Assembly (NCBI GenBank): GCA_048940445.1
Contig: JBHLON010000007.1
Coordinates: forward strand, 28,663-92,662
Length of the DNA stretch: 64,000 bases
Direction: 5' to 3'
Origin: Promethearchaeota archaeon
GTDB lineage: Archaea > Asgardarchaeota > Lokiarchaeia > Sigyniarchaeales > SOKP01
The number at the start of each line of letters is the position of its first letter. The stretch's first letter is position 1. Shown here piece after piece: positions 31,479-31,973 of the stretch. The position numbers and the translations under genes are program-made. The notes under the pieces were generated by a model. That model did not search any database and was not told the DNA's origin. It was given only the letters and a program-made list of their open reading frames with translations.

Positions 31479-31973
31479 CTAATTATTTTCTATAATTTTT
31501 TGAATTAATTTCTCAATGTTGCTATCAATAATCTTTAAAATTTTTAAGTAAGTTTCAGAATTCGTATAGTAGGGATCTAAAATGTCAGGGTTAAATGAGT
31601 CTCCATTAAATTCTTTAAGAGTTAAAATTTTCTTGTCAATATCTTTGATATTGGAGTATGTTCTAATTATTTCAACTGATTGTGCTTTCTCCATAGTTAA
31701 AATTAAGTCTTGTTTTTCCAAAAGTGCCTTATTGATAAGCTGAGGTCGAAAATCTGAATGATCTATACCTTTGGAATTTAAATATTCATGAGACTTTGGT
31801 TGCATATAAGAAAAGACATTTATAAAACCGGCGCTCTTAAAAGAAAGATTAATATTAGATTTTTTCGCATAATAACGTGCTAAATATTCAGCTACGGGAC
31901 TCCTGGCTGTATTTCTGGCTTTCTAATTAATACTTCCAGTACAGACAAAGAGTATAGATTTGATTTTTTTCAT
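31479..31973 (-). CDS. Low-molecular-weight protein tyrosine phosphatase / ArsC family, interrupted by a 21-nt putative intron; join(31934..31973, 31479..31912), 157 aa spliced
   Basis: ATG at 31973 reads MKKIKSILFVCTG-[SIN*KAR]-NTARSPVAEY...FKSAG...DLILTME...DILDPY. Removing 31913-31933 restores CTGNTARS. The ORF track shows only the last 108 aa. Confidence 0.85.
31913..31933 (-). other. Putative bulge-helix-bulge (tRNA-endonuclease-type) intron, GUAUUAAUUAGAAAGCCAGAA
   Basis: Exon helix CUGUA/UACAG, 3-nt bulge AAA, 4-bp helix CUGG/CCAG, then AAG. Cuts after the second nucleotide of each bulge excise exactly this 21-mer. Confidence 0.75.

What the first reader, a model, noticed from the sequence alone, without database searches (positions are those of the whole stretch)
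31899..31953. Candidate tRNA-type (bulge-helix-bulge) intron in the active-site codons of an Asgard protein-coding gene
Seen: the minus-strand LMW phosphatase reads ...GTC TGT ACT GGA A|GT ATT AAT TAG AAA GCC AGA A|AT ACA GCC AGG AGT. A 21-nt insert with an in-frame UAG splits the CX5R P-loop (CTG/NTARS). The RNA folds as an exon-exon stem ACUC(U)UUG-U-CUGUA / UACAG-C-CAG-GAGU (12 bp, one mismatch, one bulge), a 3-nt bulge AAA, a 4-bp central helix CUGG/CCAG, then AAG and a weak inner helix or loop. This is a relaxed BHB/BHL. Established: archaeal splicing endonuclease (EndA) cuts after the second nucleotide of each 3-nt bulge flanking a 4-bp helix, and RtcB ligates. Applying that rule gives cuts at 31934/31933 and 31913/31912, removes exactly 21 nt and restores an intact 157-aa protein. 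BHB introns in mRNA are best known from crenarchaeal cbf5. Inference: this Asgard archaeon splices mRNA with its tRNA-splicing machinery, analogous to IRE1/RtcB-type non-spliceosomal splicing. Other such micro-introns may be annotated as pseudogenes elsewhere in the genome.
Basis: partly seen in the sequence, partly recalled or inferred. Interest (0 to 1): 0.95.

Follow-up and report, generated by a model that had tools for sequence, protein, structure and literature searches.

The report
tRNA-type mini-intron in Asgard phosphatase gene
A 21-base insert with a stop codon splits the catalytic loop of a phosphatase gene in an Asgard archaeon, and it has the shape and conservation of an intron removed by the tRNA-splicing enzymes. 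Similar inserts break essential genes of the same genome, so this lineage very probably splices many messenger RNAs, which the papers I could search confirm inside an archaeal coding sequence only for cbf5.

Summary
Observation confirmed. A 21-nt insert (31933-31913, minus) with an in-frame UAG splits the CX5R loop of an LMW phosphatase. It folds as a bulge-helix-bulge, and the EndA cutting rule restores a 157-aa protein.

Thirteen distinct same-site inserts (20-21 nt) occur in relatives. All keep the central helix (3-4 of 4 pairs), with two-sided changes in three pairs. All carry a stop, and the exons are under purifying selection (dN/dS 0.14-0.26). In two alleles the junction is unambiguous and falls exactly where EndA would cut.

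The genome has EndA alpha and beta genes and RtcB. A motif-free comparison finds the same kind of insert in single-copy metG and purA and in fwdA, so this is not gene decay.

The intron travels with about 20 nt of flank on each side, between lineages and between the tandem paralogues, against the gene tree (AU p 5e-119).

No RNA data were available, so splicing is inferred (0.88). The scan reported such introns before, including this one in another genome. New variant of the cbf5-type mRNA intron.

The parts
31934..31973 (-). Exon 1 of the LMW phosphatase: ATG plus 13 codons up to Cys-Thr-Gly and the first base of the Asn codon
31913..31933 (-). Predicted 21-nt BHB intron (phase 1, inside the codon of the conserved P-loop Asn)
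   Evidence: recovered by the motif-free alignment
31923..31925 (-). In-frame UAG in the intron; unspliced RNA stops after 16 codons
31479..31912 (-). Exon 2: rest of the phosphatase (NTARS, DPY acid loop), open to the stop
31936..31939 (-). Central helix, exon strand (CUGG)
31915..31918 (-). Central helix, intron strand (CCAG)
31933..31935 (-). 5' bulge (AAG); predicted cut 31934/31933
   Evidence: BHB rule (PMC2738675); unique register in alleles L016 and L174
31912..31914 (-). 3' bulge (AAA); predicted cut 31913/31912
   Evidence: as above
31940..31953 (-). Exon-exon stem, 5' arm; part of the flank haplotype that travels with the intron
31899..31911 (-). Exon-exon stem, 3' arm
31920..31932 (-). 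Inner intron helix (4 bp in relatives, one A-A mismatch here) and loop
32046..32567 (-). Upstream tandem LMW phosphatase paralogue without intron (CAGNTCRS). In two sister genomes it is this paralogue's counterpart that carries the intron

Best explanation
[quoted passage not shown] SHOWN by computation: the pre-mRNA can fold into a 13-bp exon-exon stem, a 4-bp central helix (exon 1 with the intron's 3' end), two 3-nt bulges and a short intron hairpin. INFERRED from known archaeal biochemistry: the two-subunit EndA cuts after the second base of each bulge, RtcB joins the exons, and the 21-mer is released. The junction then reads GGA-AAU and rebuilds the catalytic loop C-T-G-N-T-A-R-S, whereas unspliced RNA ends after 16 codons. 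The spliced junction is a stem closed by a 7-nt loop (CU-GGA-AA), the geometry of a tRNA anticodon arm with an intron at 37/38. It is one of at least 10 such inserts in this genome. The intron is inherited with about 20 nt of flank on each side, which supply the exon stem, and has moved by recombination between lineages and between the tandem paralogues (direction not established).
For: (1) 13 distinct same-site inserts of 20-21 nt in LMW-phosphatase genes; central helix 4/4 in 9 and 3/4 in 4. In 12 chance matches of the same search pattern outside phosphatase genes none reaches 4/4. (2) On 11 alleles 92.5% of cells pair, against 37-53% when partners are slid; three pairs change on both sides (C-G/G-U in the central helix between an exon codon and the intron; G-C/A-U and U-A/A-U in the inner helix). 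RNAalifold finds the same fold unprompted. (3) Alleles L016 and L174 allow only one junction giving the conserved Asn, and it is the BHB one. (4) Every insert has an in-frame stop within 3 codons, yet the exons stay open, with dN/dS 0.14-0.26 between intron-bearing pairs and 0.10-0.29 between intron-less pairs. (5) Single-copy metG has a frameshifting 32-nt BHB insert in 3 genomes and none in 27; single-copy purA has a 30-nt stop-bearing one in 9 of 30. (6) EndA catalytic subunit closest to crenarchaeal chains (E 3e-38, catalytic Tyr/His/Lys motifs aligned), a second EndA paralogue, and RtcB. [quoted passage not shown] (7) A motif-free protein-to-DNA census recovers these inserts, and their junctions then show BHBs (shuffle p from under 0.0001 to 0.004).
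Against: No transcript or cleavage data. The fold energy of this site alone is not unusual (z -1.24). An ab initio genome-wide BHB scan showed no excess over 10-16 decoy geometries; it has low specificity, but it gives no support. The alleles are related and few, so the covariation counts are not independent events, and two of the five pairing measures do not beat the shuffles. This gene has an intact paralogue next to it, so its own splicing is not forced by essentiality.
Confidence: 0.88

Rival explanations
1. Pseudogene: a chance insertion killed a redundant paralogue, and the fold is coincidental.
For: An intact paralogue lies 72 nt upstream. The insert carries a stop in the active site. 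The fold z-score is only -1.24.
Against: Same-site inserts with diverged sequence and conserved pairing in 13 alleles; no second lesion; dN/dS like intact genes. The same kind of insert sits in single-copy metG and purA.
Confidence: 0.03
2. Translational bypassing: the ribosome hops over the insert, as in T4 gene 60 or mitochondrial byps (own knowledge), and no RNA is cut.
For: Short insert, early stop, hairpin. In some alleles an AAU codon flanks both ends.
Against: No matched take-off and landing codon in the window allele, in L016 or in metG. In the 20-nt allele L016, a codon-wise hop from the Gly codon gives Tyr in place of the conserved Asn, while the BHB cut gives Asn. Conservation concerns exon-intron pairing at fixed 3-4-3 spacing, which hopping does not need.
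Confidence: 0.04
3. A real BHB substrate, but EndA cleavage mainly destroys or silences this mRNA, and spliced protein is rare.
For: An intact paralogue exists. The cbf5 intron was proposed as a negative regulator (PMC2738675).
Against: Purifying selection on exon 2 implies the protein is made. metG and purA need ligation.
Confidence: 0.04
4. Stop-codon readthrough or recoding of UAG, DNA-level excision, or an assembly error.
For: The window allele is a multiple of three, with a single UAG and a 3-nt direct repeat.
Against: Relatives use UAA and some alleles shift the frame. Seven extra residues would break CX5R spacing. L016 and L174 have no direct repeat. Independent assemblies carry inserts.
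Confidence: 0.01

Closest known systems
cbf5 pre-mRNA intron of Crenarchaeota (Watanabe 2002; Yoshinari 2006; Yokobori 2009, PMC2738675)
   Same: Short BHB intron in a coding sequence; phase 1, at an active-site codon; cuts between the second and third bulge bases; often relaxed motifs; patchy presence with gain and loss; hetero-oligomeric EndA.
   Different: Asgard lineage and a different gene family. At least 10 genes in one genome instead of one. The intron moves with its flanks between paralogues. Splicing is proven for cbf5 but only inferred here.
Haloferax HVO_1309 BHB intron (Schwarz 2020, PMC7714728)
   Same: An mRNA substrate of EndA.
   Different: It lies in a 5' UTR, not in a reading frame. 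That paper calls cbf5 the only other example.
Archaeal tRNA introns, including the intron-rich Asgard tRNAs (bioRxiv 10.64898/2026.10.13.758758)
   Same: Size, BHB geometry, repeated gains, and a 7-nt loop left after splicing.
   Different: That study covers tRNA genes only ('mRNA' does not occur in it), and its focal families are not Lokiarchaeia.
IRE1/RtcB splicing of XBP1 (HAC1 in yeast); own knowledge
   Same: Protein-only cut and ligation of a short mRNA intron; metazoans use RtcB.
   Different: Unrelated nuclease and different RNA motif; stress-regulated. No homology or regulation was shown here.

Membership tests
Archaeal BHB (EndA/RtcB) intron | 4-bp central helix with two 3-nt bulges on opposite strands, flanked by exon and/or intron helices | tested here: met
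Archaeal BHB (EndA/RtcB) intron | Cutting after the second base of each bulge restores the functional sequence | tested here: met
   157-aa CTGNTARS protein; unique register in L016 and L174
Archaeal BHB (EndA/RtcB) intron | Structure conserved while sequence varies; intron-less alleles exist | tested here: met
   (few, related alleles)
Archaeal BHB (EndA/RtcB) intron | EndA and RtcB encoded in the genome | tested here: met
Archaeal BHB (EndA/RtcB) intron | Spliced RNA and excised intron observed | not testable with these tools
   no RNA holder listed
Archaeal BHB (EndA/RtcB) intron | Cleavage by EndA in vitro | not testable with these tools
   bench experiment
cbf5 intron family | Located in cbf5 at the catalytic Asp codon | tested here: not met
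   host is Pfam LMWPc; it works like the cbf5 intron but is not a member
Translational bypass elements (gene 60, byps) | Matched take-off and landing codons around the gap | tested here: not met
   absent in the window allele, L016 and metG
Group I/II or homing introns | Ribozyme core or intron-encoded endonuclease | tested here: not met
   the insert is 21 nt
LMW protein tyrosine phosphatase / arsenate reductase (PF01451) | CX5R(S/T) loop and DPY acid loop | tested here: met
   present after splicing; substrate not tested

The most novel reading that the evidence does not exclude
Loki-type Asgard archaea carry tens of EndA-spliced introns in protein-coding genes, including essential and stop-free hidden ones. 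These introns spread without any encoded enzyme, as a cassette of intron plus about 20-nt flanks that brings its own exon stem and moves by gene conversion between lineages and paralogues. This would be a mobile, protein-spliced mRNA intron system in the closest prokaryotic relatives of eukaryotes.
Probability: 0.55. Interest if true: 0.9.

Novelty: new variant of a known kind. Interest (0 to 1): 0.78.

Why it matters
The papers I could search confirm splicing inside an archaeal coding sequence for one gene only (cbf5), plus one 5' UTR. Here the same machinery appears to be needed for MetRS, PurA, FwdA and others in an Asgard genome. That would make mRNA splicing routine in the lineage closest to eukaryotes, and it bears on where non-spliceosomal mRNA splicing and intron tolerance came from. 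It also means that Asgard annotations contain truncated or wrongly extended proteins: the database holds this protein as a 108-aa fragment. The flank co-transfer gives a testable route of intron spread, which a 2026 preprint on Asgard tRNA introns leaves open. The 60-nt substrate is small enough for a direct EndA assay.

Tried and rejected
RNA evidence: the look-up of sequencing runs listed no RNA holder. This is no evidence either way, and read laying could not be used. No protein among 120 homologues equals a spliced product of an intron-bearing allele; uninformative.

Ab initio genome-wide BHB scan over joinable ORF pairs: no excess over decoy geometries. It missed the target itself because exon 1 is too short to score. 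I dropped it in favour of a homology census. A first version timed out.

G017 as the census reference was too close, because shared introns are invisible. A 28-nt 'insert' at C61+84144 is only a C-terminal difference. Pattern hits in G045, G053 and G156 are chance matches outside phosphatase genes.

The promoter scan was at chance level and is not suited to archaea. By eye, the insert does not resemble the tRNA introns that ARAGORN listed; this list is incomplete.

The shuffle p-value for the uvrA-like insert is circular (it was picked for its BHB). Those for mvk and rubredoxin come from others' leads without a homology check here.

Full report
OBSERVATION. The minus strand at 31973-31479 encodes an LMW phosphatase (Pfam LMWPc) whose P-loop is split by 21 extra bases with an in-frame UAG. 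Removing 31933-31913 gives a 157-aa protein with CTGNTARS and a DPY acid loop. The RNA folds into a bulge-helix-bulge: helix CUGG/CCAG (pair probabilities 1.0), bulges AAG and AAA, and an exon-exon stem. The energy is not unusual (z -1.24), but shuffled inserts give so good a central helix in only 0.07% of trials. An intact paralogue lies 72 nt upstream.

ORGANISM AND MACHINERY. The closest named relatives are Promethearchaeota MAGs; the genome's own name is not given. It encodes two EndA paralogues. One matches crenarchaeal catalytic chains best (E 3e-38) and keeps the Tyr, His and Lys motifs; the other appears by eye to lack them, as a structural subunit would. It also encodes RtcB and several intron-containing tRNAs. 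PMC5829648 reports Asgard EndA as (alpha-beta)2 with the L1 loop that allows relaxed motifs.

RELATIVES. Among the 30 best-hit loci in the genus, 27 orthologues are intron-less and three (this genome, G020, G022) have an insert at the same base. In the two nearest genomes (G017, G019) the upstream paralogue carries it instead. Pattern and protein look-ups raised the set to 13 distinct inserts of 20-21 nt. The central helix is complete in 9 and has one G-A mismatch in 4. None of 12 chance matches outside phosphatase genes reaches 4/4. On 11 alleles 92.5% of cells pair, against 37-53% for slid partners, with three pairs changed on both sides; one of them links an exon codon (Thr/Ser) to the intron. 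These are few, related sequences, so this is supportive and not a p-value. In L016 and L174 only one junction yields the conserved Asn, and it is the one the EndA rule predicts. All inserts hold a stop within three codons; the exons are open, and dN/dS is 0.14-0.26, like intron-less pairs at 0.10-0.29.

OTHER GENES. Leads from earlier notes were tested here. metG has one match in the genome and a frameshifting 32-nt insert, shared with G017 and G019 in diverged sequence and absent in 27 others; the BHB cut gives Val or Ile, both seen in intron-less relatives. purA, also one match, has a 30-nt stop-bearing insert in 9 of 30 loci. A motif-free protein-to-DNA alignment using about 1.1 Mb sampled from relative G008 (714 aligned proteins) found disrupting inserts in a Rab-like gene, fwdA and metG, plus a stop-free 30-nt insert in fwdA; all have BHB or relaxed BHB junctions. 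That rate suggests roughly 15-25 genes in the genome. This is a rough lower bound, because short first exons and shared introns are missed. G008 has one such insert of its own. My ab initio scan showed no genome-wide excess over decoys and gives no support.

MOBILITY. On a tree of the gene body, the 10 intron-bearing genes need 6 changes, at least 4 forced by well-supported branches, and a single clade is rejected (AU p 5e-119; much of this comes from the two paralogue-borne copies). The 38 flanking bases are 92% identical on average among intron-bearing genes, even 89% between paralogues that are about 40% identical as proteins. Against the body-tree neighbours without intron they are only 63-76% identical, with G006 the exception at 97%. 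G020 and G016 are 83-100% identical per 4-codon block in the body but 42-75% around the loop. The shared flank supplies the exon stem (about -10 kcal/mol against -4.7 on average in intron-less genes). Inference: intron and flanks move together by recombination. Whether this means repeated gains, or losses by conversion to an intron-less haplotype, is not settled. G006 is either a precise loss or a pre-insertion allele.

MECHANISM. Shown: sequence, fold, conservation, selection, and presence of the enzyme genes. Inferred: EndA cuts both bulges, RtcB ligates, and the protein is made only from spliced RNA (0.88). Rivals: pseudogene 0.03, ribosomal bypass 0.04 (no matched codons, wrong residue in L016), cleavage mainly for decay 0.04, readthrough, DNA excision or artefact 0.01. 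No RNA holder was listed, so nothing here shows transcripts.

COMPARISON WITH KNOWN WORK. It works like the crenarchaeal cbf5 intron (PMC2738675: phase-1 intron at a catalytic codon, relaxed motifs, gain and loss; introns in other genes only predicted) but is not a member of that family. PMC7714728 adds one 5' UTR case and names cbf5 as the only other. A 2026 preprint covers Asgard tRNA introns only. Five literature searches found no report of Asgard mRNA introns; the library is incomplete. This scan has noted such introns many times on other DNA, including this phosphatase intron in another genome and one note claiming RNA support for a different gene. I did not check that RNA claim and do not count it.

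VERDICT. A real feature and a new variant of a known kind: cbf5-type mRNA splicing, here in many genes of an Asgard genome and apparently mobile with its flanks. Interest 0.78; direct RNA proof is missing.

Noticed in passing
L077:2070-2115 (G000 C47 near 63578, fwdA): Stop-free, in-frame 30-nt insert with a relaxed BHB (helix GGGG/CCCU plus inner stem), absent in four relatives including the 90%-identical G017. Candidate hidden intron and recent gain; annotation would read it as 10 extra residues.
   Followed up: partly
L077:2500-2535 (G000 C47 near 64001, fwdA): Canonical 30-nt BHB insert with stop, shared with G017, absent in G021 and G008.
   Followed up: partly
L074:2380-2416 (G000 C10, metG): 32-nt frameshifting BHB insert just before the HIGH-like motif of the single MetRS gene; also in G017 and G019.
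   Followed up: yes
L075:2774-2805 (G000 C134, purA): 30-nt stop-bearing insert in the P-loop of the single purA; present in 9 of 30 loci; the exon-exon stem is weak (HBh' type).
   Followed up: yes
L080:2405-2445 (G000 C61 near 8910): 30-nt insert with stop and a strong BHB in a gene that by eye resembles the AIR-synthase/selenophosphate-synthetase family.
   Followed up: partly
L078 (G000 C63 near 31236, minus), L076 (C78 near 74290, minus), L079 (C21 near 44710, minus), G000 C72 minus: Further 30-31-nt BHB inserts in a uvrA-like gene, mevalonate kinase, rubredoxin and a Rab-like GTPase; only the Rab one was confirmed by homology here.
   Followed up: partly
L147 (G008 C11, minus strand, about 1852 from the end): Relative G008 has its own 30-nt stop-bearing insert with a relaxed BHB, in a gene that is uninterrupted in this genome.
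   Followed up: no
window:31479-32567: The genus has two or three tandem LMW phosphatase paralogues with distinct loops (CxGNTARS, CYANTCRS/T, CSGNxCRS); this genome has two at this locus.
   Followed up: partly
window:31899-31953: After splicing, the junction forms a stem with the 7-nt loop CU-GGA-AA, like an anticodon arm, which may mark sites able to receive such introns.
   Followed up: partly
window:30792-31403: Convergent downstream gene of 203 aa; its counterpart in L181 has a weak gelsolin-family hit.
   Followed up: no
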